Source: Naegleria gruberi
Lineage: Eukaryota
Reading direction: 5' to 3' (one strand)
Assembly: GCA_000004985.1 (NCBI GenBank)
Contig: GG738854.1
Length of the DNA stretch: 64,000 nucleotides
Shown here: positions 1,555 through 41,400 of the stretch, piece after piece
Numbering within the stretch: the first letter of the stretch is position 1
Layout: each line of letters opens with the position of its first letter
Program-made: the position numbers and the translations under genes
Notes under the pieces: model-generated
The model's input: the letters and a program-made list of their open reading frames with translations, nothing else
Database searches by the model: none
What the model was told of the DNA's origin: nothing

Positions 1555-4500
1555 ATGGAGCCATCACTATCAGAAAACACAACTACAAGTGACATTTCTG
1601 ATGTTTCCACTACAAATCATGACAATAACAACAATAATTCAACAATAACAACATCTTTATCAGAAAGCCAAGTTGATACTAGCACTACTAGTACTACATT
1701 GAATACTTCTTCCGAGGATCCATCATCAAGTAATGATCAAAATATTAATCCATCGAAAAGTACTACCACAACATCAGACGAAACCACATCATCTACTACC
1801 ACTGCTTCCACTACTACAGATGGCTCAGATGGATCAACCAATAATGTAGAGGATCCTACTTCTTCCATATCTTCAGATTCCCAGAAACAACTCATAAGAA
1901 GTGCAAGTATCAATAGACCAAGAAAGGCCCTTCCTCGACCAAGTCATCATGCTCCTTCTCACAGTTCTATTGATTTTAGTTTTGAAAGTTCGACCATTCA
2001 ACAGGCTTTGGAGAAGAATTCACCTTTTGTTATTGATTCTCATGCATCACCAAATACAAATGTTCAAATAACAGCCACCTCTGATAGTCCTACTGCAACC
2101 ACCACAACATTAACATCATCAGCATCAGGTAATCATTTAACCTCCTCCAATATGACGACCACCACTCAACAACGAAGAATGAGCCACAAGAGATCATCCT
2201 CCGATGTATCTGGACTCTTTGGTAATTCTGCTCTTGTCTCCAACTCTACTACAGCATCAGCTACTGTTTCACCAGTAACTCCCGAAAAACACGACTCTTC
2301 AGCTCCAAGAAAAAAGTTTACACTCTTTGGATTTTCATTTGGTGGTAAGAGTTCGTCCAATCTTCACTCGATGGCTCCAACCATACCTTCCAATAGTACA
2401 ACACCAACATTAGCAAGCTCTCCGATTACATCTTCGTCGACCAATAATTTACCAATAACACCAGTCGCTGAGAGAGGACTCTCCTCATTGACTTCAACAA
2501 CAACAAATACAACAATTGATCAATGTGTAACTCCAACATCATCTTCACTATCATCTGAGGATTCATCAGAAATTATGAGAAAAAAGAGAGCCTCTGATGA
2601 TGTTTCACACGAAGTGTTGAAATATTTAAGTGATAAACCACCAAATCGTGTAACTACTACAAATTCAAGTAGTGATGAGGAAACAATGAAAAAGAGACAA
2701 GCCATGCACATGTCCCAACCTATTGGAACCTTAGGAATACCAGAGGATTCAAATGTTGCTGGAGAAAGAGGTTCTAGGCGAGAAATTGATTTGATAAATT
2801 TCCTTGGTGAAATGAATTTAAATCAATCTCATGGAGCATTTGATGATAACAATTCAACAGGAAGAAGCGTACTCGATGATATTAGAGTAGCAACAACACC
2901 CGAATCTAGAGAACAAACAACATATGGATTTAAATCCTTTTTGGACAAGGTAAAAAACAAGGCAATTTTTGCAAGAGGAGTTGGAAGTCCAGCAGAGGAA
3001 GCAACAACACCAAGCTCTCTCTCTACAACAGATGCAAGAACAGAGGATGATGCCAAATCTGACACTACAACCACTACTTCCAAGACACCTAAGAAATTAT
3101 CGGAGAAGGAATTGAGAAAAATCAAATTAATGCAAAGAGAAGCAAATCAAAAAGAAATGATGGATGGAATTTTGGATAAAATCAGCAAGAATGGAGAATC
3201 ATTTGCCCATCTAACATTCTTTGATGAAAATGATCAAGAATGGCAATACATTGGATACATTCAAAAGTATGATTCATCCATGACTGATGATGAATTGTAC
3301 ATGATGTATGCCTTGCTCGGAGTTGGAGGTGCAGAAGAAGGAACTACACCAAAAGCTAAGGAAAAGGACGTCAAGGATTTCACAGGTGGAATTTTTGGAG
3401 ATGCCTGTGTTTGTCCAGTTCTCTCAAGACTATGTGGTAGAGGTGAATTGAAATATCCAAATGGTGCTGTCTATGAAGGTGATATTATTAGAGGAAAGAG
3501 ACACGGTTTTGGTAAAATGATTTTCCCATACAAGAATACCTTACCACCTCCAACTGGTAAAAAGGCCAACAATACTGAGCAAGCACCACCAACAGCCATT
3601 GCTATTGGTCAATGGATTTTGAATAACCCTAGTGAAGCCATTCCTTTCAAGGTCACCTACTCTAATGAGCTTGAATATTGGGGAACTTTCAGAGCTAAAA
3701 GCAAGTTTAATTCTGCCTATGTAATTTCGGTTGGAGATTTGGAAAAACACAAGGAAGGTGAATTGTATCACGTTCAGGAAAATAAGAAATACTTTGGTGG
3801 ATTTTCTGAAGATCTGAAAGATGGTTTTGGAGTGGAAGTAATGGGTAATGGTGAAAGATATTATGGTGGCTGGAAGAATGGTTTATATCATCATATGGGA
3901 ACTTATCAATATATTGATGGTTCATATTTCCAAGGAGAATTCAAGAGAGGTACTAGAAAAGGAAAAGGTAAACTTTACCTTGCCACAGGTGACGTTATTG
4001 AAGGAACTTGGAGTGGAGACAAGATTGAAAGTGCTGTTTTCAAGAAGGGAAATTGTAAAAATGTAGAACTTACCCATCTTTTCCAATTGAGAACGCAAGT
4101 GAATGATGCAATCAAACTTTTCCAAAATGTTGGTCATATGGATGATAGCAATTATCTCCAATTTTTGAGAATGACCAAGAAGGAATGCATTGAAAGACCA
4201 GAATTGGAATTAAAGTGGAAATACTACTCTCTCATGAGTAAGGAAACTTGGAGAAAGGAAAAGACAAATCTTTTAGAATACTACTCCAAGAATGGAGACA
4301 AGTGTAATTTATTGGATAAGGTCGTTTTCAAGAATGAAGTCATCAAATTGTTGGGCGAGACTATCAAGACAGAATATATCTCACCACAAGCAAGCTTTGT
4401 CAAGGGATTTATTGAATTCTTCGATGGCCTCTATCATGGAAGCTACTATGCCGGTAATAATAGAAATCAATCATCTGGTGCACGTAAAGTTGCCAGAAAA

Positions 4501-6024
4501 GACGGTGTTCTCCTCTACAATGCCATTGATGACTTGAAGAGTTTTATCATCTTTTTGTGTGATCAAGTGGTTTGGGAATTTTTCGGTAATGAAATTATTT
4601 CAGCCAAGTTAGGAAGTATGGGTGGATCAGATAACAACTTGGACCAACAAGATGGACAATACGATGACTATGATGATGAAATCATTTTTGGAACTTCTGT
4701 ACCTGCCACTACTGATATTACTAAGAGTCATTTCATAACCGTTCAACAAGCTTACAACTTTTGTAAGACCATTATTGCCGATCACTTGCACAAGAAACTC
4801 TACTCTACAACATTTGAATTGTACGAATATCATTTCAGAGATCAAGATTTAATGATCAATCAAAAGATTAATTCCATCTTGACCACATGTAGCTTGCAAA
4901 ACTTTGGTGTTCACTCTGATTTTATTCCAAAAGATACTTCAGTTAAACCTTATAATGAATGTATTCAATTGATGAAGGAAATTAAATTTTCCAACTCTGT
5001 CGAATCCAAGATTCGTGTCTTATCCAAATTGAGAACACTTGTTATGCAATCCATGAGAAAAGTCAAAGTTGAAAGCAAACAGTTAAAGAAACGTTTATCT
5101 GGCGAATTTGATTATGAAAATGTGGAAAGTGATGACTGGCAACCAGGTGCAGATGATGTAACTTCTCTCTACACTTACTCTTTCATCAAGACCAATATTG
5201 GAAATTATACAGCTTTATTTAATTATGTGAATGATTGGAAATCACCACATACTAGCTTAAAGCCAGTCTCCCATGTTATTTCATTCTTTGAAGGATTCCT
5301 TGCCTACATTATGGACTTGGATCCAAATCTTACTGTAAAACAAAGCGAGTTGGGTGAAAGTATGGGAGATGCTTCAGAGGATAGTTATGTATACATTTCA
5401 AAATATGGTCTGACTAAGCAATTAGAACGAGCTATTGAATTGGCGATCTTTAGAAATCAAAGTAAGAAGGAAAAGATTGAACGTCAAATGCAAAAACCAA
5501 ACTTGGAGCCAGAAGAAATGAAGGACCTTACACATCAACAAAAAGAATTGCAATTGATCAGCTTTTCATGGGTTTCACCTCTCCTTTTATTCGTTTCCTT
5601 ACAGGTCGGTCACATTCAGCTTCAAGTAAACAAGAAAGCTGAGACTACACAATCAGAAACATCTAAAGCTCTATCTATTGAGGTTGTAGAAACAACTCAT
5701 CAAAATATGATTGTTCCAATGGTTGACGGAAGTGGAAATATGCTCAATTTAGCCCAAGCTCTCATGAAGTATCATCCCTTGGTCCAGAGCGTTCTCGATT
5801 CTGCCAAACTTGGATTTAATATTGCTTTGAAATCGGATAAGAAGGAAGGAGTGCAATCTACAACAACAACTGATGAGAAAGCCCAACATCATCAAGATAG
5901 AATTGTTATAGAGTTTGATAAGGAACCATTCCCAAGTTATGTCTATAGTGAGCTTTCTCTTGAAATTGCCAAATTCATCAAATTTGAACTAGAAAATTCT
6001 GACAGTCTTCAATACAAGATTTAA
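1555..6024 (+). CDS. MORN-repeat + VPS9-domain protein (ALS2CL/alsin-like putative Rab5-family GEF) with a ~400-aa Ser/Thr-rich N-terminal region
   Basis: 1489-aa uninterrupted ORF. Central MORN repeats of the Y-x-G-x-W-x-x-G-x-x-H-G-x-G type (YEGDIIRGKRHGFGKMIF; YFGGFSEDLKDGFGVEV; YYGGWKNGLYHHMGTYQYIDGSYFQGEFKRGTRKGKGKLY). C-terminal VPS9 core motif GADDVTSLYTYSFIKTNIGNYTALFNYVNDW, compared with GADDFLPVLIYVLIKANP in Rabex-5/alsin. The first ~400 aa are S/T/N low complexity. Confidence 0.65.
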   Translation: MEPSLSENTTTSDISDVSTTNHDNNNNNSTITTSLSESQVDTSTTSTTLNTSSEDPSSSNDQNINPSKSTTTTSDETTSSTTTASTTTDGSDGSTNNVEDPTSSISSDSQKQLIRSASINRPRKALPRPSHHAPSHSSIDFSFESSTIQQALEKNSPFVIDSHASPNTNVQITATSDSPTATTTTLTSSASGNHLTSSNMTTTTQQRRMSHKRSSSDVSGLFGNSALVSNSTTASATVSPVTPEKHDSSAPRKKFTLFGFSFGGKSSSNLHSMAPTIPSNSTTPTLASSPITSSSTNNLPITPVAERGLSSLTSTTTNTTIDQCVTPTSSSLSSEDSSEIMRKKRASDDVSHEVLKYLSDKPPNRVTTTNSSSDEETMKKRQAMHMSQPIGTLGIPEDSNVAGERGSRREIDLINFLGEMNLNQSHGAFDDNNSTGRSVLDDIRVATTPESREQTTYGFKSFLDKVKNKAIFARGVGSPAEEATTPSSLSTTDARTEDDAKSDTTTTTSKTPKKLSEKELRKIKLMQREANQKEMMDGILDKISKNGESFAHLTFFDENDQEWQYIGYIQKYDSSMTDDELYMMYALLGVGGAEEGTTPKAKEKDVKDFTGGIFGDACVCPVLSRLCGRGELKYPNGAVYEGDIIRGKRHGFGKMIFPYKNTLPPPTGKKANNTEQAPPTAIAIGQWILNNPSEAIPFKVTYSNELEYWGTFRAKSKFNSAYVISVGDLEKHKEGELYHVQENKKYFGGFSEDLKDGFGVEVMGNGERYYGGWKNGLYHHMGTYQYIDGSYFQGEFKRGTRKGKGKLYLATGDVIEGTWSGDKIESAVFKKGNCKNVELTHLFQLRTQVNDAIKLFQNVGHMDDSNYLQFLRMTKKECIERPELELKWKYYSLMSKETWRKEKTNLLEYYSKNGDKCNLLDKVVFKNEVIKLLGETIKTEYISPQASFVKGFIEFFDGLYHGSYYAGNNRNQSSGARKVARKDGVLLYNAIDDLKSFIIFLCDQVVWEFFGNEIISAKLGSMGGSDNNLDQQDGQYDDYDDEIIFGTSVPATTDITKSHFITVQQAYNFCKTIIADHLHKKLYSTTFELYEYHFRDQDLMINQKINSILTTCSLQNFGVHSDFIPKDTSVKPYNECIQLMKEIKFSNSVESKIRVLSKLRTLVMQSMRKVKVESKQLKKRLSGEFDYENVESDDWQPGADDVTSLYTYSFIKTNIGNYTALFNYVNDWKSPHTSLKPVSHVISFFEGFLAYIMDLDPNLTVKQSELGESMGDASEDSYVYISKYGLTKQLERAIELAIFRNQSKKEKIERQMQKPNLEPEEMKDLTHQQKELQLISFSWVSPLLLFVSLQVGHIQLQVNKKAETTQSETSKALSIEVVETTHQNMIVPMVDGSGNMLNLAQALMKYHPLVQSVLDSAKLGFNIALKSDKKEGVQSTTTTDEKAQHHQDRIVIEFDKEPFPSYVYSELSLEIAKFIKFELENSDSLQYKI

Positions 6025-6056: not shown

Positions 6057-8540
6057 TTAAATATCGAGAGGAAGAGCCCTCACATCTCCAACATTTGTAA
6101 ATGCAGCATACGAGCAATCAAACGAAGAATAATAACTCGATAAGATTATAGGTATCGAATTCTCCTCCATCTTTGAAATATTCAAACATGGTTGCAAGAT
6201 TGAAATCAATCTCTCCGTTGTTATATCCTCTGGATGCCTCACTAAATAATTTTGGAAAACTCCCAATACGTGATCAATCTCCTTTTTGATTTCAGATTGT
6301 GAAATTCCATTCCAGAAATCAGCAGAAAAGACATCAAATGCCTTGTAATACTCTGCAAATGCATTGTTCTTCTTTGAATTTTCCAATTCATAAAGCCATT
6401 CATCATTGTCGGTATTCTTTTCACCAAAAACTTCATAAATTGTTTCAATACTTGAATTATTCATTTCCTTCTTAATCTTGTCAATTGGTTTCAAAATGAA
6501 TTTTCTGGCAATATCTGCTTGTAAACTTTCACAACAAGATGTATCAATTAGCACATTTACATTGAATGAATCTGCCAATATGCACAATTTTTCAGAGTCA
6601 ACCACACATGCACCAACAATCGTATAGTACCTTGAAGTTTTAGTTCCCAAGTTTCCAACCCTAGCTTTCGAACAACTGACACCAATTCTAGGGTAGAAAT
6701 CAGGTCCAACCTGATTGATAGCCTTTGCAAGTTTGAAAGCCAGCTCAACACTCTTTTCAATCAGCTTATCTTGCTCTCCTGGAGAATTAGCCGAAAGTGC
6801 CAATTGTAAAGCAAACTTTGGAAGAACTTGCAAATTAGCTTTGTATACTTTTGTAATCGGTCCAATAGCATTCATAATCTTTTTAAAACCATTCTCAATA
6901 TCACTTGGCTGTTCCATTGAGAAGAAACCCTTCAATTGACAAGTGATTACAACAGTTTGCTTGACAGATAATCCCATTTGGAATAGTGAGCCACCTCCCT
7001 TCTTGGAAGAATGAATTCTCGATTCCAAATCTGCGTGGCTAACTCCATCATTAGTTGTGCCCATGGAATGTTTCGATTCAGCAAAGGATTCATTCTTCTT
7101 GATATTGACAGATCCAAATTCCATCTCAATTGTTTGTGAGTTGATTAATTGTTCAAAAACGTGTTCTGGGATGAAAGATTTAATTTCCTTCAGCCATTGA
7201 ACAGTTGTTTTCAAATTTCCAAAAATGGAATTAATTTCCTTGAAAACTGAATTACCAATATTGACAGTGTCAAGATCAAGGACCTTAATAAGCTCAAATT
7301 GACGTTCTAAAGCTTTCATTGGTTTGGAAACTATAAATCCAATGATAAAACTGACAATGACACCAATAATCATGACAGTGACAGCCACACCAACACTAAT
7401 GCCAGTTGTCATTGTCAAGGATGCAATCACTTCTTCTTGATAAACAACGAAATAGACATTCCATTTCAAATTATCAATCTTGTAAGTGTAATGAGATATG
7501 ATATAACCTATTCCATTAACTGTTTCAGTAATTCTTTTTGGTAATTCATTCAAATCACCATATTTTACACTAATTTCTTTCATTAATTGCCCAGCATCTC
7601 TTTCTGTCAAATTATAAATATGTAAATTAGTATTTCCGTCAGGTGTCAAAGTATTAATTGACCCACCAACTAGAATTCCATTTTGCTGAGAAACCAAACA
7701 AAACCCTTTACCAATCAACACAATCTTACTCAAGAAATCAACAATATTCTGCAGTGAAATGTTTACTCTTGTCACTCCTGTCACCACTTTCTTACCTGTC
7801 TTGTACTGAACTGGATCATACAACTTTGAGGAGTGATAAATGGCCATACTTGATCCATAAGGTTTATAAGCATTGCCATAAACACCTTCAATGCCCAATT
7901 GAGTAGATAATATTATGGTCGAATTGTAATAATCTTGATCTAGGGTATAAAACGGAGTTAAATCCACAGTTGAGTTATATTTGGTTACAACTCCAGTTGT
8001 TACATTTATGGTATCACGCAAAGTTCCGATAAATCCAGGAGGTTGATAGGAATAAACTGGATAGGTTTTGTTTCCAGAACCTGCAGTAGAATAGGTGTAT
8101 TTAGTAGAAGGAGGACCAGCAAAGAAATATCCGCAACTAGAAGTTTTGAATTCTGCAAATTTGGGAAACAGATAAGTTCTAAAATTGGAAGTAGTAGCAA
8201 TTCCATTGTTGTAATCATAGGCAATGGATTTGGAGAGTTTTCCAAGGGGATCCATAAAGGTATTGAGATAGGAAGTGATTTTTTCTCCATTGACATCTAT
8301 CAAGTCATTTGACAGACCCTCAATCACTTGCTTTGTTACAGTGAATGAAGCAATCCAGATACAAAAGCAACTCATGATAAGAAGTATGGATACTACAGAA
8401 ATGATAAATAGATTAATTGGAATTCTTCCACCACACACTCGATAGAAAGTTGAAACATTTTCTTCAGGATTTTTTGAAGTGTCGTTTGACATTACTTCTT
8501 CCATGTCATCGTGGGTTACAGGGACAATTACTTGGACCAT
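6057..8540 (-). CDS. Receptor-type membrane protein: extracellular sensor domain, TM, HAMP-like linker, degenerate class III nucleotidyl-cyclase homology domain (likely pseudo-cyclase)
   Basis: 827 aa. N-terminal TM (LFIISVVSILLIMSCFCIWIASF), ~330-aa extracellular region, second TM (ISVGVAVTVMIIGVIVSFIIGFIVS). The cyclase-like core is …VVITCQLKGFFSM…RIGVSCSKARVGNLGTKTSRYYTIVGACVVDSEKLCILADSFNVNVLID… It aligns to the canonical LFADIVGFT…RIGIHTGPVVAGVIG…WGDTVNxASRMES, but the metal-binding Asp residues and the Asn/Arg of the NxxxR motif are substituted. Confidence 0.55.
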   Translation of the reverse strand: MVQVIVPVTHDDMEEVMSNDTSKNPEENVSTFYRVCGGRIPINLFIISVVSILLIMSCFCIWIASFTVTKQVIEGLSNDLIDVNGEKITSYLNTFMDPLGKLSKSIAYDYNNGIATTSNFRTYLFPKFAEFKTSSCGYFFAGPPSTKYTYSTAGSGNKTYPVYSYQPPGFIGTLRDTINVTTGVVTKYNSTVDLTPFYTLDQDYYNSTIILSTQLGIEGVYGNAYKPYGSSMAIYHSSKLYDPVQYKTGKKVVTGVTRVNISLQNIVDFLSKIVLIGKGFCLVSQQNGILVGGSINTLTPDGNTNLHIYNLTERDAGQLMKEISVKYGDLNELPKRITETVNGIGYIISHYTYKIDNLKWNVYFVVYQEEVIASLTMTTGISVGVAVTVMIIGVIVSFIIGFIVSKPMKALERQFELIKVLDLDTVNIGNSVFKEINSIFGNLKTTVQWLKEIKSFIPEHVFEQLINSQTIEMEFGSVNIKKNESFAESKHSMGTTNDGVSHADLESRIHSSKKGGGSLFQMGLSVKQTVVITCQLKGFFSMEQPSDIENGFKKIMNAIGPITKVYKANLQVLPKFALQLALSANSPGEQDKLIEKSVELAFKLAKAINQVGPDFYPRIGVSCSKARVGNLGTKTSRYYTIVGACVVDSEKLCILADSFNVNVLIDTSCCESLQADIARKFILKPIDKIKKEMNNSSIETIYEVFGEKNTDNDEWLYELENSKKNNAFAEYYKAFDVFSADFWNGISQSEIKKEIDHVLGVFQNYLVRHPEDITTERLISILQPCLNISKMEENSIPIILSSYYSSFDCSYAAFTNVGDVRALPLDI

Positions 8541-20930: not shown

Positions 20931-23900
20931 ATGGTTATTGTTTCTGTTGTAGCTACTGTTATTATGATTTCAACTTCTGTAGGTTACAATCCACCAGAGC
21001 CAAAACCAGATTCATTACAGGCCTATAAGAATACTGCCTATACCATCTATCCTCTTTTGAATGATGTTGATCCAAAAGGAAACAATCTCACCCTCGTCAA
21101 CATTACCCAACCATTGTACGGAACAGCCAAATTACTCGCAGGTAATAAGGTTCAATATACCAGTCCAAAATATTACGCAGGAAATGAAACATTTTATTAT
21201 ACAGTTTATAATGGATATGGATATGCAGAGAGTTATGTTAAAATTGAAGTTTTGAATAGAGTTCCAGAAATTGTAACCATCTATAAGGATATTTCAAAGA
21301 ATAGTCAAAACAATATCATTGATGTTTTCAATTATGTTACTGAGAGTGGAGCTCAAATTAGTGATGTAGATGGTGATATTTTAACAATTGTTAGTATTAC
21401 AACACCAAATGTTGTAGGAGCTGTTGCTACCATTGTTGACTCTCAATTCATTTATTATACTCCACCAACAGGTTATAATAGTGCTGACTTTTTCAATTTT
21501 ACCATTACTGATGGAAATTCAACTGTTAGTGACACTATTTATATCAATGTTTTGAATGATGCTCCAACCAGTAATCCAGATGATTATGTCATTCCAAAGA
21601 ATAAGGTTGCCTCACTCAATTTATTGGCAAACGATTATGATGTCAATTCTGACAATATTACCATTGTTACAGCCAAGTCAGGACTTGGTTCTAAGGGTGT
21701 TGTTGTCTTTTCAGATGATGGTCTCTCTGCTGAATATTATCCATCTGCTGATACTAAGGTCTATAGTGATGCTTTCGAATATACAATCACTGATGGAGAT
21801 AAGGAGTCGGCTACATATGTTTTTGTCAGAGTCAAGAATTCCCCTCCAACCATGGAAAGCAAAACCATTACCATTCCAAAGAACTCTGAGAATAATACCA
21901 TTTCTTTAGAATATGCAGAGAGTGATATTCTCGATACTGTAACAATTACTGTTTCTAAAAAGCCAACTAGGGGAACTTTCACACTTTCACAATTGTCCAC
22001 CTCCAATAACGTTAATTATTTGAATCAACAATGGATGGTTGTAACTCAAAATACTTACACTCTTATTTATACTCCTGAAAAGAGTGTTTCCTACACTGAT
22101 AGCATTACATTCAAGATTGATGATGGCTATGACTTCACATATGCCACCTTTACTCTTAATATTGTCAATTTGCCACCTGTCACTATTAATGATACCATTG
22201 TTTGTCAAAAGAATCAACAAGTCACACTAGATGTTGTTGCCAATGATTATGACTTGAATGGAGATGTCCTCAAGTTATCTTCTTCAGCTGCAGATTGGAC
22301 CAATAGCCGTGGAGGTGCTACAGTCTCAAGAGTTGATGATGTTCAATTGAAATATGTTGCCAAGAGTGGTTTCTTGGGTGAAGATGTTGCCTCATATGTT
22401 GTAACTGATTCTGACAGCACTGCTGCATTGACTTCTACTGGTTATGTTATTGTCACAGTTGTCAATACTCCTCCTGTTGCTGTTGATGATACTATCACCG
22501 TTCCAAAAGGAGTTCTTTCCTCTTTGGATGTATTAATTAATGACAGTGATCCAAACGGAGATGCCATTGATTTCAATGCTACCAGCTTTACATCTACAAG
22601 TGGTGTTGTTTCCAGTGTCAATGTTACTAGTCCAAGAAATTTGTTGAATTATCAAGCTTTTGATGTTGTCTATCAAGATAAGATTACTTATACCATTAAG
22701 GATATTGATGGGGCTACTGCATCTGCCACTATCACCTTAAATGTTGTCAATACTGCTCCCGTTGCTAATGATGATACTATTAGTGTCAAGTGGAATACAA
22801 GCATTGTTATTCCTGTATTGGCCAATGATTATGATCAAAATCCTGCTGATAGAAGCGTTCTCACTGTCAAGACAATTAATGCTGTTTCTTTGAGTGGAGG
22901 TGTTGCTACTTCTTTCAATGGTGGTAAGAGCATCTTGTTCACTCCAACACCTGGTTTTGTTGGAAGCTTTGTTTTTACTTATACTATTACCGATTCTGAT
23001 TTAGAAAGTAATGCTGCAACTGTTACTGTCACTGTTTTTAATAGTGCTCCTGTTCCAGTCAATGATCAAGCTACTACTCACTGGCGTGATACATCAGTTA
23101 CTGTTGATGTGCTCAGTAATGATTCTGATCCAGAGGGTGATAATCTTTATATTCTCAGTGCTACTCAACCAAGTAAGGGTACTGTTTCAATTGTAACTCT
23201 CGATAATGGAAAGGATGGTATCAAATATTCCATCTCATCTTCTCAACAATTTGTCGGTGAGGAAACCATTACCTATACCGTCACTGATTATTCCATGACT
23301 GCAGTAGCTACTCTTAAAGTAACAGTTACAAATCAAGCACCAGTCGCCTTGGGAGATTATGTCAAATTGCATTGGAGTACCTCATCTATTACCATTCCAG
23401 TTTTGGCCAATGATACCGATGCCAACAATGATCCAATTACTATTGGCACAGTTACACCTCCTAATGGATTTGCTGGTACTATTACCAAGATTGATTCAAA
23501 TACCAAACTTCAATTCGTTCCAACTGCTCAATCAAAGGGTGTTCAAGTTGTAACCTATGTTGCTTCTGATGGACAAACCACAAGTGCAGGTGCAAGCTTG
23601 ACAATTGAAGTTACCAATGCTGATGCTCCTTCGGCAAGCACAATTTCTAAAACTGTTCACTGGTCCACTCAAACTACTGGTACTACCATTACATTATTCT
23701 CATCAGCTCGTGATGGAGATGGTGATTTGAATCAAATTGATTTGGCTAGCTCACCAACTGTTGCTCCATCTCACGGTACAGTTACATTGTCTAATGGGGA
23801 TTCCAATACTCTTCCAAACGTTTTGTACAAGCAAAGTACTAACTATCTTGGTTCTGATACTTTCAAGGTACAAGTTACTGATGGTGCAGATAATGCCATT

Positions 23901-26900
23901 TACACTGTCAATATGAACATTTACAACAACAAACCAACTCTCACTGCTGCCTCAACAACAGGTCATTGGTCCAAATTTGCTTCTGGTTATTCAGTTGATG
24001 CCATCTTGTTAACTTCAGCTCAAGATGCCGACTCTCAAGATACTCTTTCACTATCTTCAATTTCTCCAATGGATTTCATTACCATTAATGGAAATCAAAT
24101 CACATTCTTACCTACTGGCTCATTTGCTGGAACAAAGGTCTACACTGTTAATATTACAGATGGTATTGAAATTAGTTCTACATCTTGGACTGTCACTGTT
24201 CAAAACAACGATCCTTCTGCTGTTACAACTACTACAACAATTCACTGGTCTAAGGGATTTGAATTGATTGATGTATTATCTACCATTACAGACGCTGATT
24301 CTGATAGCATTGATTTCTCCCTTGTCAGTACTGCTGCTACAGCAAAAGGTACACCATCCATTCAAGTTTCTGGTTCCAAGAAATTAGTATTGTGGACTCT
24401 TCCATCAGTATCTGTTTCAATGTTAGGAAGTTCATCCTTCTCCATTCAATACACTGACGGATGGAAGACTAAAGAAGCCACCTACACTGTCTCAGTAACA
24501 AATTCTGCTCCAGTTGCCACAGATAAATCAACAACACTCCATTGGTCCAAATATTCAACTGGTGTTTTGATTGATGTCTTGTCAGGTGCTACTGATACCA
24601 ATTCAGAAGATAGTATTTCTTTGACCAGTTCACCATTTTCCTCTCCATCTCATGGAACAGTTTCAGTTAGTGCTGGTAAGGCACTCTATACACCAACACA
24701 AGGATATGTTGGTTCTGATTCATTCACATACTCTGTAACTGATGGTTTGGAAACTTCAACCAAAACTGTCAGTTTGACAATTACCAATCAAAAACCAGTT
24801 GCCAATTCTGACTCTGTCACTATTCACTGGAATACATCTTTTGTTGACATTAATGTATTAGGAAATGATGTAGATTCTGATGCCGAGGATACACCAATTA
24901 TCAAGACCGGCTCAGTTACTACACCAACTCAAGGAACTGCCTCAATTGTTGATGCCACTTTGGGTGTAATTAGATACACCCCATCCCAATCAGTGACAAC
25001 AGGAGCAAAGACCTTCACTTATAAAGTAACAGATGGAGCTGAAATTTCCACTAGTGCAGCAACCGTCACAGTTACTGTTACCAATGCTAATTCACCAAGT
25101 GCTTCTTCCTTGTCAAACACAATGCATTGGAGATCTGCTTTGGTAGGCACCAGCTACTCCTTATTCAATTCTGCTACTGATCCTGATGGTGATGCTCTCA
25201 AAATTAATATCCTTACTAATCCTTCTGGAACTTATTCTATTAACTCTGATGGAACTTCTGTCTTTTTCCAAACGGCTAGTGCAAGTAAGGGAGTTCAAAC
25301 ATGTACCTATACTATTTCAGATGGTTTGTCCACCTCCTCTTCTGCTACCATTACAACAACAGTCACAAACAGTATCCCAACAGCTCAAGATATCTCACTA
25401 AAATATCACTGGAGTATGATTGGAACTGGTTTAACTATTGATGCCATTTCTAAGGCAACTGATAGCGATGCTGCAGATATTGCCAACTTGAAATTGAATT
25501 CAGTTAGTCCCTCTCAAACCTATGGTAACGTTGTTTCAATGAGCCAAGATAAGACTAAGATTATCTATCAACCAACCAATTTACAAGTTGGTAATGATAC
25601 CTTCACATATTCAGTAACTGATGGATTGGACATTTCTACATCGTATACCGTTACAGTAGAAATTACCAGTACTCAAGCAGATCCATCTGATCAAATTTAT
25701 AGTGTTCATTGGAGAGCAGTACCTATTGATTTTAATGTCTTACAAAATGTTTCTAGCAGTGGAAGTGATCAACCAATTTTGGATGGAATTGATACTCCTG
25801 CATCACATGGTACAGTTGCAATTTCACAAGATCAAAAGTATGTGACCTACTCTATGGGAAGTGTCTACGTTGGAACTGACAAATTCGTTCTTAATTATCA
25901 CGTTGGTCTTAGTAATAACAAAATTACTGTAACTGTCAATATTTACAACACACAACCAACTGGTACCTCAAAGACTGTATCTACTCACTGGAGAACTCCA
26001 ATTAATATCAATTTACTTACAGGAGCCAATGATGCTGACTCTCTTGATATTCCAAATCTCTCTGTTCAACTCTCCTCAACACCTTCAAAGGGTGGCTTAT
26101 CCACAGTTTCTTCAGGTAGTGTCACTTACACACCAGAAACAAGTACAAGTGCCTTTATTGGTACCACGTCTTTCAATTTCAAAATTAATGACGGAAATTT
26201 ATTATCATCAAATGTACCTGTATCTGTCACTGTTACAAACACTGCTCCAAAGTCATCTTCAAAGAGTGTCAATGTCTTGTGGAGCGATTTTGTTTCTGGT
26301 AAGGAACTTTCTGTTCTCACATTATCTCCTGCTGATAGTGACGATAATAGTGATCCAATTAGAGTCAAATCATTCGGATCTACAAGTAAGGGAACTGTTG
26401 TAGCTAAAGGTGCATCAGGTTCTGATGCTAATATTGCCATTATTAAGGGTGTTACTGGAGAAAAATATATTGGTGCTGTCTCCTTCACCTATGTTGTGAC
26501 AGATGATGCAGCAAATGGTGATGTTACCACTACTGTCAGTGTCAATGTTTATAACAACAAACCAGTTGCAGTCTCTGATAGTGTCACAACACACTGGAAT
26601 GTCAATTATATTGATATTGATGTGTTGGCAAATGATTCTGATCCAGACTCTAATAGTTTGAGCATTGCCAGTGTTTATGGTTCATCTGCTACTACTGCTC
26701 CAATCATTACTGGTGGTAAGATTAGATATTATCCAAAGACCTCAACTGTTGGTACTGTTGATGTTTTCAAGTATGAACTCAGTGATGGAGCTCAATCAAG
26801 TGAAGGAACTGTCTCTGTCAACGTTACAAACACTAAACCAACAACTAGTTCATTCTCTCAAACCTCTGTATGGTCTGCTGTTAAGAATGGTGTATACTTC

Positions 26901-29900
26901 TCTGTGGTTGCTTCATCATCAGATGCTAATGGAGATTCCTTGTCATTAGCTTCCTATACTTCAATTACCCAAGCTCAAGGAGCATTGTCCACTGTTGGAA
27001 GTGGTTCTTCTGCTCAAATTTCATACGTCCCAACAAGTGGTTTCACTGGAGCAATCAAGCAAATTGTATTCACCATTTCAGATGGAAAGGAGACAAATAC
27101 TGGAACAATTGACGTCACTGTAACAAATAACTTGCCAACAGCCAACACTGGTGCATTTACCTATCACTGGAGACAAGCTTTATTAGCCAATAATATTGTC
27201 TTGACCTCTAGATTTAGTGACAATGATGGTGATTCTGTAACAGTTTCACAAGTCACTTCTGGTGGAAGAGCTGGTGTTACCCTTGTTGCAACCAACACTG
27301 TTAAATATCAATTAGCTTCTGCATGGAAGGGTTCCGATAGCTTTACTGTGCAATTCACTGATGGATGGGGAAGCTCAAGTGCAACTTTCCCAGTTACTGT
27401 AACAAACTCTGTTCCAGTTGCTTATGATATTGCTGTTAATGTTAATCACCTTTCTTCTTCCTCGGTCAGTATTCCAATATTGTCAAGAAGTGATGGTCTT
27501 AAACCAACAGATGCTGATTCTGCAGATTCAGGCGCTCTCACCATCTCTTCATTTACTCAGCCAAGTATTGGTACTGTTACATTATCATCGGGAACTTTTA
27601 CCTTCCAAAACGTTCAAGGCAATTTGGTAAACCAAACCTTTACTTACACAGTTTCTGATGGCTTTGAGACAGTAACTAAAACTATTACCGTAAATATTCT
27701 TGATCAATCTCCAACAGCTAATAGTGTTAGCAAGACCTATCACTGGAAGACTATTCAAAGTGGACTTGACTTGAACTTTATCACAGAATCTTCTGCTACT
27801 GATCCAGATGGAGATACATTGTCAATTTCTGCATTTACTCAACCACAAACAGGTACAGGTACTGTTGCTAGAAAAGCTGGCTCGACAACCAATCTCATAT
27901 ACACTCCACCAGCAGGAACAGCCCCACTTACTGCTACCTTTAAATTCACTGTCAGTGATGGTAGTATTTCAGTTGAAAACACGGCAACAATTTCCTTGAC
28001 AAATACTGCTCCAGTTGCTGTTTCTGATTCGGTTTCCAAGTTGTGGAATAATAAGGTCTTTACCATTAATCCACTTGCTAATGATTCTGATGGTAACGGA
28101 GACACAATTACAATCTCTAGTGTTGATTCAACTTCTTTGATTCGTGGTGCTACTTTAACTATCTCTTCTGATAAGCTCTCTATCACTTACACCTATACTG
28201 GAAGTGGTGCCACTGGCACAGATAGCTTTAAGTATACTATTACTGATGGAGCATCTACCTCAACTGCAACAGTGACCATCACATTTACCAATCAAGAACC
28301 TGTTGTTTCATCTGTTACTCAAAGTGTCAAGTGGAATTCAGCACTAACTGTTAATTCTTTATTGTCTAGTTGTTCAGATGCTGATGGAGATACCTTGTCA
28401 TTTGTTTCTATTTCTTCAGGTCAATATGGTTCTGTTGTCACCAATGATGCATCAGTTGGAAAGATTACCTATACACCAGCTGCATCTATTTCCTATACCA
28501 GTAAACCAAATTCTGGCAGATGGGAAGCTGTTGATGTATTGACATTCAAATGTACAGATGGTTTGGCTGAGAAGTCTGGCACTCTCTCTATCACTATTTG
28601 GAATACTCCACCAACAGGAAGTAACAAGAATGGAACCTTTACCAGAACTTACAGCTCTCCAACTCTATCAATTCCAGAGAGTACTTTCAAGACTGGTGCT
28701 AGTGATGCTGATTCCGATACCATTTCTTTGAGCGCTGTCCAAATGTATTCCTCATCAGATTCTTCATGCTCAGTGGTTTTGCAATCTGACAAGTCAGTTA
28801 AATTCACTTATGGTCAATCCTTTGTTGGAACTCAACAATTCTATTTTACTTTGAGTGATGGTCAATTGACTAATACATACACTTACACAATTACTATTTC
28901 CAACACTTTAACTTGTATGGATTACACTCTCACAACCACAAAGAATAGTGCAGCAACTCAATTCGAAGATTCCATCAAGAGTCAATGGGCAACAAACTTT
29001 GGTAGTGAATCAATTACACTCTCAATAGTATCTACAACCAATTTGAATTCTGTTGGTACCATTACAACTGTCAGCAGTAAGCTCACCTATACCCCCACTG
29101 CCAGAAGATCATGCACAGGAACTAATTGTTATGCTGTTTATAGAGTTTCTAACACTGCTTCCCAAACTGCTGATTGTAATATTTATGTAGTACAACCAAA
29201 TAATGCACCAACTGCAACTAATTGGGACTATGAATTCTCTATTAGAAGAGATGGTAACGATGCTCGTACTTTTGATTATTTGACAGACTCTGCTGCTACC
29301 GATTCTGATACCTCTGACAGTCTCAGCATTTCAATTTCTAGTACTGGAACATGTAGCTCTGCTGGTACTTTGTCAATCGTTAGTAATAAGATTAGCTTTG
29401 TAAGATCCTCATCATACGCTGATCAAAGATGTACATTTACATTGACAGTTAGCGATAATGATCTTTCAAATCCACGTACAACTTCTGTAATCATTGGTAT
29501 CAAGCCAATTAGCTCTCCACCAATTGCAGTCAGTGATTCCTTCACAGCTGTTTACAATAACAAGATTGATATCCTTGCATCTGACCTATTAACTAATGAC
29601 TACGATCCTCTTGGGGGTACTTTTGTATTTGCTGGTATTGATTGCCCGGATTCTACATATTGTAAAAATGCTGGAATACCAACCATTTTGAATCCAAGTG
29701 ATAGTGCAAATAATAGAATTATCAGAGTTTTACCAAAGACTGGAAGTTGTGAAGCCGAAAAAGTCAGATACAAGATTACTTCTGTCCAAGACAGTACCAC
29801 TGCCTATGCTGATATTAATATCAAGTATAGTAATTGTGTTTGTAGTCAAATATTCGATTTGATTTTCATTTTGGATGGTAGTGGTTCTATATCAGCAACC

Positions 29901-38456: not shown

Positions 38457-41400
38457 ATGTTTCGTTTCTTCTTATTGATAACACTCACACTTGCAGGTTT
38501 CGTGCACCAGCAGATGCATGTCAGTGGAGCCGAATCCAATGTTAAATACATAGTCAAGACCTATTCAACTCTACCAGCCAACACCAATCCAAATGCCATT
38601 CAATTCTATAACCACAAGATGTATGTAACAGGTTCCACTAATAACATCTATGCAGTTTCGAATAATGGAAGTTATACCATCGTAAACCCAATATCCACTT
38701 TGGATGCTCCAACAGGAATACATATTGTGGATGATTGGCTCTATGTTTCTAATAGTGGATCTCAGAAAGTTTCCAAGATGTATTTAAATGATTCTCCAAT
38801 TCAAGTATTTGATGTTTTAACATTTTATCCTAATACGAATCTTTTTGTTTTATCAGAAAGTGAATTGTATGCAGTCGATAAGAATAATAACTTGATTCGA
38901 CACTGGAAGGATAGTTCCTTTGCATTGGTTAGTGTTGGCAGTCTTAATGGACCGAATGGAATTTTTATTCGAAACAATACTATTTACTTTACCGAAAATG
39001 GAGCTCGTACATTGAAAGCAATCGATCAAAATAATCAAATTTCAATTCTTGCTTCAGATATTAATGCGTATTCAGTATATGTCACTGAAGATAATGTCAT
39101 TTTCTTTACAGATTATGTTGGTAGCCTAATTTGGAGAATTAAAGACGGTCAATCTTCGGTAATTGCTGGATATTCAGGAAGTTCTGGTAATGATAATAAG
39201 GAGAATGTCAATGCCACTTCTAGTAGTGTAACTCTTCCTACTGGAATAACATTTGACAACTTGACAGGTATAATTTACTTTGCAGAAATTTCCAATCAAC
39301 GAATTCGTGGATTGATTCCATATTGTGAAACAGCTGGACATTACTTGAATGCACAAAAGTCACGTTGTGTGTCAAGTGTCTGTTCAGGAGTTGACAGCAC
39401 CAACTCTTCTGTTTGTTCATCACGTGGTATTTGTAATCAAACCAATCAATGCTCATGCCAATCAAAGTATTTTGGTGATAATTGTGAATTGACAAGTTGT
39501 AATGGAATTCAAAGTAATTCAAATTTGGTTTGTTCTGGAAATGGAACTTGTCAAGATTACAATTTTTGTAATTGTAAGAATGGTTTGCTTGGAAAGAATT
39601 GTCAAATTGCAACTTGCTTTGGAATTTTATCCAATCAAACAAGTGCTTGCAGTAGTGGAAGAGGTATTTGTCAAGGAATGGATTTTTGTAATTGTTCGAA
39701 AGGTTTCGTCGGCCAAGATTGTGCTGAACATACATGTGGAGGCATTTCTTATAATAACACAGCAACTTGTTCTGGAAATGGAACGTGTGTTGGTGTAGAT
39801 AGCTGTTCTTGCAAGGAGGGTTTTTATGGAGATAACTGTCAAATGCCAAAATGTTTTTCAATCATGTCAAATGACACGAGTGTTTGCTCTGGTAATGGAG
39901 AATGTATTGGAAAAGATAAGTGCAATTGTAAGAGTGATTATTCTGGATATCGTTGTGAAATAACTTCATGTTTCGGTATCCCATCAAACTATTCGAATGT
40001 TTGTTCTGGAAATGGAAATTGCACTTTCAAAGATTTCTGTAATTGCACATTTGGATATTTAGGTAAACAATGTGAAGTTGCTCCTTGTTATGGAATTCCA
40101 GCAAATTATTCGAATGTCTGTTCTGGAAATGGAAATTGTAATGGAAAAGATAATTGTAATTGTCAACCAGGATTTTCAGGAAATCAATGTGAAATTCCAA
40201 CTTGTTTTGGAATTTTGGGAAACAGTTCAATGGCGTGCTCTGGCAATGGAGAATGTCAAAATTTAGATCAATGCAATTGTAATTCAAATTATACTGGATC
40301 AAAATGTGATGTTCCTATATGTTTCGGTATTGCAAAAAGTTCTAGTTTAGTTTGCTCAGCTATTGGAAATTGTACGAAACCTGATTTTTGTGAATGTCCA
40401 TCAAATTATGAAGGATACGAATGTCAATTTCGCATCACTCCAAGAAAATTACAAACTAATGGCATTCCAACTGCAATTGTCCAAGGAATTTCCACAACTT
40501 TTGATTTGAAAGTTATTGGAATGGAATTGAGAACATTTAGTGATCTAGTCAACTCGAGAAAGGATTGTGGAGTGACATGTTCACTTTCTTTATCATATAG
40601 TTGGTATTTGAAGGATAGAGACAATGGTTCACCGTTAATTATCCAACATTCGAATACCGCATTTGGAAATACGAAATATCTTTCGTCTTCAACTTTCCAG
40701 TTGACTTTCTCACCTGTTATTTCAATTGGTTTTACTAGAATTTTAAGTAGAAATGTAACTTTGACATTTGAAATTGTATCTGGTGGTGAAAATGTTTCAA
40801 TTTCTCAAGATATCTTGATTATTTCACCTCTGTTGAGAACTAAAGGTTTAGGTAAGATTCAACCAAGTTCTGGAATCGCACTTGGTTCCTTATTTTCAAT
40901 AGAGGAAGATAAGAATCTTTGGACAGTCTCGGAAGAAAGTAAGAAATATCTTGAACCTTTTCAATTTGCCTTTGGTTTCTTTTACAATCAAGAATTAGTA
41001 AGAATCTCTGATTTTTCCATAAATGGGATGGATTTATTGTTCCTTCCATATTTGAACGCAAATAATAGTAATGGACAAAGTGAAAATTTGGATATTTATG
41101 TTATCTGTAAGGATGCTTTAAAGAATGAATATTCTTCTCTTATTGGTACTGTTTCAATTAGTCCAAATTTGGTAAACACAGTTGAAGAATTGAAAAATCA
41201 AATTGATGATATTGCACGCATTATTCCTTATGACTCTTCATGGAAGTTTAGAGATCTGAAAGAATACAGCTCTGTTATTATCGAGTCTGTCAGCAAGTTG
41301 AGTATTGACATTAATAATCCATCAAATACTTTAACAACTCTTCGACAATTGACAAGCCAAAGTGTTGCTTCTTCTTACCAAGTTGGTTCTATCATTAATG

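What the first reader, a model, noticed from the sequence alone, without database searches (positions are those of the whole stretch)
6057..8540. Receptor-type cyclase-homology protein lacking catalytic residues (pseudo-cyclase sensor?)
The topology (TM, ~330-aa extracellular Cache/CHASE-like region, TM, HAMP-like, CHD) mirrors receptor adenylyl/guanylyl cyclases. However, the CHD has Q/L in place of the metal-binding Asp of FxDIxGFT, no GD in the second motif, and V/K in place of the Asn/Arg of NxxxR. Such dead cyclase domains often act as regulatory or heterodimerisation partners. A canonical PAS-cyclase gene lies 38 kb away in the same window.
Basis: partly seen in the sequence, partly recalled or inferred. 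Interest (0 to 1): 0.5.

Follow-up and report, generated by a model that had tools for sequence, protein, structure and literature searches.

The report
Dead-cyclase dCache receptor of Naegleria
This Naegleria gruberi gene encodes a membrane receptor built like a bacterial-type sensor adenylate cyclase whose cyclase domain has lost almost all of its catalytic residues. It belongs to a large, undescribed family of such "dead-cyclase" receptors in Naegleria and its relatives.

Summary
Window 6057-8540 (-) is one intact 827-aa ORF, identical to a Naegleria gruberi "predicted protein". Its layout is TM1, a roughly 314-aa double-Cache ectodomain, TM2, a HAMP plus cyclase-transducer helix, a 51-aa disordered Ser-rich linker, a class III cyclase-homology domain (CHD), and a 4-helix C-terminal domain.

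Pfam does not detect the CHD, even at E<=10. It is established instead by:
- a family profile against PDB (only cyclases, best 3.5e-7);
- hhalign against canonical CHDs (98.1%, E 7e-14);

In that alignment five of the six catalytic residues are gone:
- metal Asp 1 is Q535;
- metal Asp 2 is K575/F576;
- the substrate Lys is Q571/V572;
- Asn is V647;
- Arg is K651.
Only T640 is kept.

The protein is not a one-off. Of 139 CHD segments among the 150 best-scoring relatives, 138 are likewise degenerate. They come from N. gruberi, N. lovaniensis, N. fowleri, Willaertia and a prokinetoplastid. About 120 relatives could be measured for the linker, and all carry the insertion. Canonical DKDTNR relatives coexist with them.

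Most likely this is a ligand-sensing receptor with a non-enzymatic output. A heterodimer with an active cyclase could only be inhibitory, because the protein supplies neither half of an active site. This is a new variant of a known kind, of moderate interest.

The parts
6057..8540 (-). Whole gene: single-exon CDS of 827 aa plus stop (stop codon 6057-6059)
   Evidence: ORF list. 100% identity and coverage to the N. gruberi predicted protein P0001.
8418..8540 (-). N-terminal cytoplasmic tail, aa 1-41, predicted disordered
   Evidence: pLDDT below 50 for aa 1-38. Poorly conserved, 10-29% identity to homologues.
8343..8417 (-). TM1, aa 42-66
   Evidence: Kyte-Doolittle peak of 2.75. Start of helix H42-111 in the model. 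Coordinates checked by translation.
7401..8342 (-). Extracellular double-Cache (dCache_1-like) sensor domain, aa 67-380: stalk helix plus two PDC modules, with six N-glycosylation sequons
7326..7400 (-). TM2, aa 381-405
   Evidence: Hydropathy peak of 2.89. Lies inside helix H368-419.
7143..7325 (-). HAMP-like two-helix module plus cyclase-transducer-element helix, aa 406-466 (P407, S431-x-F-x-E435, F456-I-P458). This is the most conserved part of the family.
   Evidence: No Pfam HAMP hit. hhalign to the HAMP+CTE region of bacterial HAMP-cyclases that carry PF00672 gives Prob 94.4%, E 9e-8 (Pfam labels). P407, E435 and P458 are 98-100% conserved over about 135 relatives. Identity is 57-62% even to distant paralogues.
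6990..7142 (-). Disordered Ser/Asn/Gly-rich linker, aa 467-517, inserted between the transducer helix and the CHD
   Evidence: pLDDT below 50 for aa 467-517. 18-22% identity to homologues. The spacing from P458 to the Asp1 column is 76 aa here and 58-131 aa (median 78) in about 120 clade members. It is 26-31 aa in canonical relatives, counted by hand from the sequences.
6411..6989 (-). Class III cyclase-homology domain, catalytically degenerate, aa 518-710
6936..6938 (-). Q535 at the position of metal-binding Asp 1 (FxDIxGF)
   Evidence: hhalign column map. Codon checked by translation.
6813..6830 (-). Beta2-beta3 hairpin, aa 571-576 (Q-V-L-P-K-F). Q571/V572 sit at the substrate-specifying Lys/Glu position and K575/F576 at the 'GD' metal Asp 2 position. 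There is a one-residue register ambiguity.
   Evidence: hhalign puts V572 at Lys and F576 at Asp. Alignment by eye puts Q571 and K575 there. Neither register gives Lys/Glu or an acidic residue. Strand boundaries E569-573 and E577-583 in the model.
6588..6623 (-). T640 (substrate position, Thr retained as in class IIIb), V647 (in place of the transition-state Asn) and K651 (in place of the transition-state Arg)
   Evidence: hhalign. Codons checked by translation.
6138..6410 (-). C-terminal four-helix domain, aa 711-801, opening with the clade-specific motif D713-E-W-L-Y-E-L719 (window 6384-6404)
   Evidence: Helices H715-738, 748-768, 773-787 and 790-801, mostly at pLDDT 80-95. W715 is 98% conserved, D713/E714/Y717/E718 are 83-86% conserved and D772 is 93% conserved across the clade. 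By my own comparison of sequences, it is colinear with the helical tail of canonical relatives P0064 and P0155.

Best explanation
The gene encodes a two-pass plasma-membrane receptor descended from a bacterial-type dCache-HAMP-class IIIb adenylate cyclase. In my reading, its extracellular double-Cache domain binds an unidentified small ligand and the signal passes through TM2 into the strongly conserved HAMP and transducer helices.

The cyclase-homology domain is a correctly folded pseudoenzyme. Five of its six catalytic residues are replaced, so it cannot make cAMP or cGMP. It also cannot contribute either half of a composite active site to a partner.

The CHD and the C-terminal helical domain (DEWxYEL motif) hang on a roughly 50-residue disordered Ser-rich tether. 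I infer that they act as a non-enzymatic output: a dimeric scaffold whose availability or conformation recruits or releases cytosolic partners. This would resemble pseudokinase receptors, or the degenerate GGDEF/EAL receptor LapD.

Shown here: architecture, fold, loss of catalytic residues, clade membership and conservation pattern.
Inferred: ligand binding, dimerisation and the protein-protein output.
For: - Architecture and topology.
- CHD homology.
- Catalytic positions Q535, K575/F576, Q571/V572, V647 and K651.
- End-to-end colinearity (aa 54-714, E 9e-25) with P0064, a canonical dCache cyclase that carries DKDTNR.
- Clade-wide degeneracy: 138 of 139 CHD segments lack the full catalytic set, and Asp 1 is Arg/Lys in 55 of 128.
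- All 14 canonical CHDs separate from all 123 dead CHDs by one split in 30 of 30 bootstraps.
- Not a decaying gene: the ORF is intact, and orthologues or paralogues exist in four heterolobosean species. The CHD models at pLDDT above 90. It is 38% identical to the N. lovaniensis orthologue, against 22% for the linker.
- Clade-specific gains suggest a new role. These are the linker insertion in every measurable member and the DEWxYEL motif with 98% conserved Trp.
- The composite-active-site logic comes from PMC4174876.
- A receptor with a comparably dead CHD, CcNeoR4, was non-functional in every heterodimer combination tested (PMC10622942).
Against: - There is no experimental or interaction evidence for any output partner.
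- The CHD (38%) and the C-terminal domain (35%) are less conserved between orthologues than the sensor (58%) and the HAMP+CTE (61%). The functionally critical output may therefore be the HAMP/transducer region rather than the CHD.
- A disordered tether argues against mechanical transmission of a conformational signal to the CHD.
- Dimerisation could not be modelled.
- Thr640 and the G-N-x-G hairpin are retained, and Arg to Lys is conservative, so some nucleotide binding is not excluded.
Confidence: 0.6

Rival explanations
1. It is a modulatory, in practice inhibitory, heterodimer partner. The protein would pair through TM, HAMP, transducer helices and the CHD arm with a catalytically competent dCache-type adenylate cyclase of the same lineage. 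This would titrate the cyclase into dimers that have no complete active site, or confer a second ligand specificity on it.
For: - HAMP+CTE is the best conserved region, even among distant paralogues (57-62%).
- The beta4-beta5 hairpin (G629-N630-x-G632), part of the CHD dimerisation arm, is 88-99% conserved.
- Canonical relatives with DKDTNR coexist with dead ones in Heterolobosea, for example Willaertia P0161.
- Obligate heterodimeric receptor cyclases are known, namely NeoR/RGC (PMC10622942).
Against: - The protein offers none of the residues needed on either side of a composite site (PMC4174876). It could only silence a partner.
- The dead clade vastly outnumbers its canonical relatives: 138 against 1 among the CHD segments of the top 150 representatives. 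That ratio is odd for a mere inhibitor.
- The 50-aa flexible insertion breaks the CTE-CHD register that paired cyclases rely on.
Confidence: 0.2
2. It is a non-catalytic nucleotide sensor. The degenerate CHD pocket would still bind ATP, GTP or a cyclic nucleotide and report cellular nucleotide status. This would resemble the Pseudomonas class III cyclase-like ATP-binding protein.
For: - Thr640, G538-F539 and the G-N-x-G hairpin are retained.
Against: - Both metal ligands, the base-recognising Lys and the ribose-orienting Asn are lost.
- The pocket positions are not conserved within the clade. Asp 1 is R, K, T, Q, E or L, and Asn is E, S, K, N, Q or D. A shared ligand pocket should not vary like this.
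Confidence: 0.08
3. It is still an active cyclase that uses an unorthodox set of catalytic residues.
For: The fold is intact at pLDDT above 90. Arg to Lys at position 651 is conservative, and Thr640 is retained.
Against: - There is no acidic residue at either metal site in either alignment register.
- No alternative conserved acidic or polar cluster appears in the CHD across the clade.
- Pfam scores it at nothing.
Confidence: 0.04
4. It is a decaying pseudogene or an annotation artefact.
For: Catalytic residues are lost. The CHD is less conserved than the sensor.
Against: - The ORF is intact over 827 codons, with a chance probability of about 6e-28.
- It has conserved orthologues and paralogues in at least four species.
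- All domains fold confidently.
- The linker evolves much faster than the CHD, at 22% against 38% identity.
Confidence: 0.02

Closest known systems
Bacterial-type dCache_1-HAMP-class IIIb adenylate cyclases. Examples: the Paracoccaceae protein P0154; M. tuberculosis Rv2435c, named in PMC4822843; and the canonical eukaryotic relatives P0064 (metagenome), P0158 and Willaertia magna P0161.
   Same: The domain order and topology are the same: TM, dCache, TM, HAMP, transducer helix (F/Y-I/V-P), CHD, helical tail. The alignment to P0064 is colinear end to end (E 9e-25). The class IIIb hallmarks Thr at the substrate position and V-G-N-x-G are retained.
   Different: Those proteins carry D-K-D-T-N-R and score 88-105 bits on Pfam Guanylate_cyc. 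In them 26-31 residues separate the transducer Pro from Asp 1. The window protein has Q, Q/V, K/F, T, V and K at the six positions, has no Pfam hit, has 76 residues of spacing (51 of them disordered), and has an added DEWxYEL motif.
Degenerate halves of pseudo-heterodimeric cyclases: mammalian membrane AC C1/C2, soluble AC C1/C2, and sGC alpha/beta
   Same: These are CHDs that have lost part of the catalytic set yet keep the fold and the wreath-like dimer. The best PDB sequence hit of the family profile is the sAC C2 domain.
   Different: In those enzymes the losses are complementary. Each half keeps either the metal Asp pair or the Lys/Asp/Asn/Arg set, so one site still works (PMC4174876). 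Here both sets are lost in the same domain, so no complementation is possible.
Fungal heterodimeric rhodopsin-guanylyl cyclases (NeoR with RGC), and in particular CcNeoR4
   Same: Both are receptor-cyclase paralogues that arose by duplication. CcNeoR4 lacks a canonical CTE and the metal- and base-binding residues (PMC10622942).
   Different: The sensor is a rhodopsin, not dCache. CcNeoR4 is a single odd paralogue that was non-functional in all combinations tested. The Naegleria protein belongs to a conserved clade of more than 100 sequence clusters.
Solved non-enzymatic CHD-like proteins: the P. aeruginosa class III AC-like ATP-binding regulator (6yii) and A. baumannii ACX60_00475 (7sua, a cell-division protein; bioRxiv 10.64898/2026.04.03.716176)
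LapD-type degenerate GGDEF-EAL receptors and pseudokinase receptors (analogy drawn from my own knowledge)
   Same: A HAMP-linked membrane receptor whose enzyme-derived cytosolic domain is catalytically dead and signals by binding or conformation.
   Different: The fold family is different (GGDEF/EAL or kinase). LapD signals inside-out on binding c-di-GMP. No ligand or partner is known here.

Membership tests
Class III nucleotidyl cyclase catalytic domain (Pfam PF00211 Guanylate_cyc) | Sequence scores above the Pfam gathering threshold (21.9 bits) | tested here: not met
   No hit even at E<=10, either for the whole protein or for the isolated domain. Orthologues P0002 and P0004 reach only 18.0 and 16.4 bits. 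22 of 54 wider relatives match at E<=0.01.
Class III nucleotidyl cyclase catalytic domain (Pfam PF00211 Guanylate_cyc) | Homology detectable at profile level | tested here: met
   Family profile against PDB: 17 hits at E<0.005, all class III cyclases. hhalign against four canonical CHDs: Prob 98.1%, E 6.9e-14 over 181 columns.
Class III nucleotidyl cyclase catalytic domain (Pfam PF00211 Guanylate_cyc) | CHD fold (beta-alpha-beta-beta-alpha-beta core with a beta4-beta5 arm) | tested here: met
Class III nucleotidyl cyclase catalytic domain (Pfam PF00211 Guanylate_cyc) | Two metal-binding aspartates | tested here: not met
   Q535 at Asp 1 and K575/F576 at Asp 2, in either alignment register.
Class III nucleotidyl cyclase catalytic domain (Pfam PF00211 Guanylate_cyc) | Substrate-specifying pair: Lys or Glu, plus Asp, Thr or Cys | tested here: not met
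   Q571/V572 sit at the Lys/Glu position. Only the second residue of the pair, T640, is retained.
Class III nucleotidyl cyclase catalytic domain (Pfam PF00211 Guanylate_cyc) | Transition-state Asn and Arg (NxxxR) | tested here: not met
   V647 and K651.
Class III nucleotidyl cyclase catalytic domain (Pfam PF00211 Guanylate_cyc) | Head-to-tail dimer, and cAMP or cGMP synthesis | not testable with these tools
   No multimer prediction or biochemistry was available.
dCache_1 extracellular sensor (Pfam PF02743) | Sequence above the gathering threshold (45 bits) | tested here: not met
   18.9 bits, E 0.0012, aa 234-360. 13 of 54 relatives match at E<=0.01, best 4.9e-10.
dCache_1 extracellular sensor (Pfam PF02743) | Long N-terminal stalk helix followed by two PDC (PAS-like) modules | tested here: met
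   The model has H42-111 plus two alpha/beta modules at pLDDT above 90. Foldseek hits to dCache chemoreceptors and kinases: McpB/C at E 4e-11, 3lib at E 3e-8, plus 3li9 and 6d8v.
dCache_1 extracellular sensor (Pfam PF02743) | Located between two transmembrane helices, on the outside | tested here: met
   Two hydropathy peaks flank aa 67-380, and there are six N-glycosylation sequons in the loop. The orientation itself is inferred.
HAMP domain (Pfam PF00672) | Pfam match | tested here: not met
   No HAMP hit at E<=10.
HAMP domain (Pfam PF00672) | Two amphipathic helices with a connector directly after the last TM, with conserved Pro and Glu, and homologous to bona fide HAMPs | tested here: met
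   H368-419 and H434-454 in the model. P407 is 98% conserved and E435 is 99% conserved. hhalign to the HAMP+CTE of PF00672-bearing bacterial cyclases gives Prob 94.4%, E 9e-8.
Cyclase transducer element coupling (class IIIa/b cyclases) | A conserved helix with Pro that directly abuts the CHD (about 26-31 residues from the Pro to metal Asp 1) | tested here: not met
   The motif F456-I-P458 is present and 90-100% conserved. However, the spacing is 76 residues, with aa 467-517 disordered.

The most novel reading that the evidence does not exclude
Naegleria and other Discoba may have turned a bacterial-type dCache adenylate cyclase into a large family of cyclase-dead chemoreceptors. The family comprises more than 100 sequence clusters. 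Some members have ankyrin or EGF N-termini in place of dCache. The family would signal through a new, non-nucleotide output built from the HAMP/transducer helices, a flexibly tethered pseudo-CHD and the DEWxYEL helical domain. If so, this would be a previously unrecognised class of eukaryotic surface receptor, possibly used by amoebae to sense bacterial prey metabolites.
Probability: 0.3. Interest if true: 0.65.

Novelty: new variant of a known kind. Interest (0 to 1): 0.45.

Why it matters
Naegleria genomes are credited with 80-100 or more "cyclases" that are taken to reflect rich cAMP/cGMP sensing (PMC9928731). This result suggests that part of the cyclase-related repertoire cannot make cyclic nucleotides at all: a clade with more than 100 sequence clusters in public data and at least 7 N. 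gruberi members.

Much of that repertoire is invisible to Pfam. Most N. gruberi members are annotated only as "predicted protein". A 2016 survey found Cache in a single Naegleria protein (PMC4822843).

The finding gives a natural, well-populated example of a pseudo-cyclase receptor family. Its defined signatures are the lost catalytic set, the linker insertion and the DEWxYEL motif. The family could be used to ask what a cyclase fold does when it no longer catalyses. It also identifies a candidate chemoreceptor family in the genus that includes the pathogen N. fowleri.

Tried and rejected
- Single-sequence searches of the protein found no cyclase: Pfam, NCBIfam and PDB phmmer. Pfam on the isolated CHD also found nothing.
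- The look-up of encoding contigs had no record of the exact protein.
- The word-indexed homologue search found only 6-7 relatives, even with a 54-sequence profile. The exhaustive representative search was needed.
- Family HMMs scanned over the six-frame window found no second family member and did not detect the PAS-cyclase. I therefore dropped the idea that the two window genes are related partners.
- The AFDB Foldseek library was unavailable.
- The first neighbour-joining attempt, with Kimura distances, failed through saturation (NaN distances). It was replaced by a BLOSUM-score distance.
- Literature searches for Naegleria pseudo-cyclases found nothing specific.
- The Actinobacteria cyclase survey is held only in part.
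- The accession of the "single Naegleria Cache cyclase" could not be recovered.
- A CHASE ectodomain was considered and rejected: all hits are dCache/PDC.
- An amino-acid-binding dCache motif was looked for by eye and not seen. It was not tested formally.
Full report
**What is there.** Window 6057-8540 (-) is one uninterrupted ORF of 827 codons in a window of about 35% GC. A random frame of that length would stay open with probability of roughly 6e-28. The product is 100% identical over its full length to a "predicted protein" of Naegleria gruberi on a 665-kb contig. The window is therefore eukaryotic, and gene neighbourhood carries no operon-type information. The neighbours are a MORN/VPS9 protein and a low-complexity protein. 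The neighbour at 1555-6024 converges on this gene, with 32 bp between the two stop codons.

**Topology and domains.** Hydropathy gives two transmembrane segments, at aa 42-66 and aa 381-405. They flank a 314-aa loop that holds six N-x-S/T sequons. A full-length AlphaFold model built on a 54-sequence alignment has mean pLDDT 83.9, with the folded parts above 90. It shows:
- a long helix (aa 42-111) that runs from TM1 into a stalk;
- two alpha/beta PDC modules;
- a helix (aa 368-419) spanning TM2 and the first HAMP helix;
- a second HAMP helix (aa 434-454);
- a short helix (aa 459-472);
- a disordered stretch (aa 467-517, pLDDT below 50);
- a compact alpha/beta domain (aa 518-710);
- four C-terminal helices (aa 715-801).

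Foldseek against PDB matches three kinds of structure: full-length dCache chemoreceptor models (McpB/McpC/YvaQ, E 4e-11), dCache ectodomains (3lib, 3li9, 6d8v) and class III cyclase domains. Pfam sees only a sub-threshold dCache_1 hit in the window protein (18.9 bits). However, 13 of 54 relatives hit dCache_1 and 5 hit MCP-like_PDC_1. The juxtamembrane region aligns by hhalign (94.4%, E 9e-8) to the HAMP plus transducer region of bacterial cyclases that carry Pfam HAMP.

**Is the C-terminal domain a cyclase-homology domain?** By single-sequence methods it is not. Pfam gives nothing at E<=10, either for the whole protein or for the isolated domain. NCBIfam and PDB phmmer also give nothing.

Three independent lines show that it is nevertheless a CHD:
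- A profile of the six closest homologues finds 17 PDB sequences at E<0.005. All are nucleotide cyclases, and the best is the C2 domain of soluble adenylyl cyclase at 3.5e-7.
- Profile-profile comparison with four canonical CHDs gives 98.1% probability and E 6.9e-14 over 181 columns.

In addition, 22 of 54 wider relatives match Pfam Guanylate_cyc, best 1e-24.

**Catalytic residues.** In the hhalign alignment, with codons verified:

| Canonical position | Residue in the window protein |
|---|---|
| Metal Asp 1 (FxDIxGF) | Q535 |
| 'GD' turn, metal Asp 2 | P574-K575-F576 |
| Substrate Lys/Glu | Q571/V572 |
| Substrate Asp/Thr | T640 (retained, as in class IIIb enzymes) |
| Transition-state Asn | V647 |
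| Transition-state Arg | K651 |

The register of the 'GD' turn is ambiguous by one residue. hhalign puts F576 at the Asp and alignment by eye puts K575 there, but there is no acidic residue in either register. Because class III sites are composite, one protomer gives the Asp pair and the other gives the Lys, Asp, Asn and Arg (PMC4174876). A domain that lacks both sets can neither catalyse as a homodimer nor complement a partner.

**It is one of many.** An exhaustive profile search of 1.84 billion representatives gave 6568 hits at E<=1e-3 and 119 at E<=1e-30. Among the 150 best, 139 CHD segments could be aligned, and only one (P0064) has the full catalytic set. Across the rest:
- Asp 1 is Arg or Lys in 55 of 128 segments;
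- Asn is kept in 15 of 133;
- Arg is rare at the transition-state position, which is most often Lys (26 of 131).

Sampled members come from N. gruberi (at least seven, including this one, almost all annotated only as "predicted protein"), N. lovaniensis, N. fowleri, Willaertia magna, a prokinetoplastid transcriptome, and uncultured material. Some members replace the dCache region with ankyrin or EGF repeats.

Canonical relatives with the same architecture and D-K-D-T-N-R exist. Examples are metagenomic P0064, P0158 and Willaertia P0161. The window protein aligns colinearly with P0064 from TM1 to the end of the CHD (E 9e-25). In a rough neighbour-joining analysis, 123 dead and 14 canonical CHDs fall on opposite sides of one split in 30 of 30 bootstraps. 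This is consistent with one ancient loss followed by radiation. However, the greater conservation of active enzymes could inflate the result.

**Clade signatures beyond the lost residues.**
- *Linker insertion.* The distance from the conserved transducer Pro (P458) to the Asp 1 column is 76 residues here. It is 58-131 residues (median 78) in about 120 measurable clade members. It is 26-31 residues in canonical relatives, counted by hand from the sequences. The extra residues are the disordered, Ser-rich, fast-evolving linker.
- *DEWxYEL motif.* This motif sits just after the CHD. Its Trp is 98% conserved, and D772 in the helical tail is 93% conserved.
- *Strongest conservation.* The most conserved positions are P407, E435, F456 and P458 in the HAMP/transducer region, and G629-N630-x-G632 in the beta4-beta5 hairpin.

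Identity to the N. lovaniensis orthologue differs by domain:

| Region | Identity |
|---|---|
| Sensor (ectodomain) | 58% |
| HAMP+CTE | 61% |
| CHD | 38% |
| C-terminal helical domain | 35% |
| Linker | 22% |

The CHD is thus under constraint, but less so than the sensor and the HAMP.

**Interpretation.** The best-supported reading is a ligand-sensing dCache receptor that has lost cyclase chemistry. It would use its HAMP/transducer helices, the tethered pseudo-CHD and the helical tail as a non-enzymatic output. This part is inferred.

The main rival is that it heterodimerises with a canonical cyclase of the same lineage. Given the residue losses, that could only be inhibitory or specificity-modifying. 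The numerical dominance of dead members and the broken CTE-CHD coupling argue against it. As a precedent, CcNeoR4 has a similarly dead CHD and was inactive in all heterodimer combinations tested (PMC10622942).

It has a 43-nt intron inside the CHD. But it belongs to another CHD lineage that the family HMMs do not detect. It has a different architecture, and it carries Glu at the second metal site.

Non-catalytic nucleotide binding, residual activity and pseudogene status are each unlikely, for the reasons listed under the rival explanations.

**Novelty.** Degenerate CHDs are a known phenomenon. Examples are C1/C2 pseudo-heterodimers, NeoR, 6yii and 7sua. I found no description of this eukaryotic dCache-HAMP-pseudoCHD clade. 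A 2016 Cache survey reported Cache in a single Naegleria protein (PMC4822843). I therefore class this as a new variant of a known kind, of moderate interest.

Noticed in passing
window 46110-52000 (+): PAS-cyclase gene. Its CHD is interrupted by a 43-nt GT..AG intron at 50770-50812. In 'KIKTISEKYF' the second metal-binding Asp is Glu and the preceding Gly is Ser, while Asp 1, Lys, Asp, Asn and Arg are all kept. The ORFs at 46110-47786, 47710-48624 and 48625-50808 lie in different frames and look like exons of one multi-TM gene.
   Followed up: partly
window 1555-6024 (+): A 1489-aa low-complexity protein with MORN repeats (42 bits) and a sub-threshold VPS9 domain (23.4 bits against a cutoff of 27). 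It converges on the target gene, with only 32 bp between the two stop codons.
   Followed up: partly
window 20931-31403 (+) and 38457-43697 (+): Very long ORFs of 3490 aa and 1746 aa. Not examined.
   Followed up: no
relatives P0007-P0151 (CHD column equivalent to aa 535/576 of the window protein): In the dead-CHD clade the first metal Asp is most often Arg or Lys (55 of 128). An acidic residue is kept at the second metal position in 56 of 130. This suggests a salt bridge that fills the former metal site. The window protein itself has Q535 and K575/F576.
   Followed up: partly
relatives P0048, P0075, P0078 (JGI metagenome contigs) and others: Some clade members carry N-terminal ankyrin repeats, and one carries teneurin-like EGF repeats, in place of the dCache sensor. 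They keep the HAMP-like region, the linker and the dead CHD.
   Followed up: no
relative P0069 (Apiculatamorpha spiralis, EukProt): A more distant member of the dead-CHD group comes from a prokinetoplastid (Euglenozoa). The family may therefore span Discoba rather than Heterolobosea alone.
   Followed up: partly
window 6990-7142 (-), aa 467-517: The disordered linker ends in a semi-conserved S-x-S-G-x-K stretch. S507 and S511 are invariant among the six closest homologues. Several paralogues have basic-x-x-Ser patterns there, such as RRSL in P0005. This is a possible phosphorylation site, but it is speculative.
   Followed up: no
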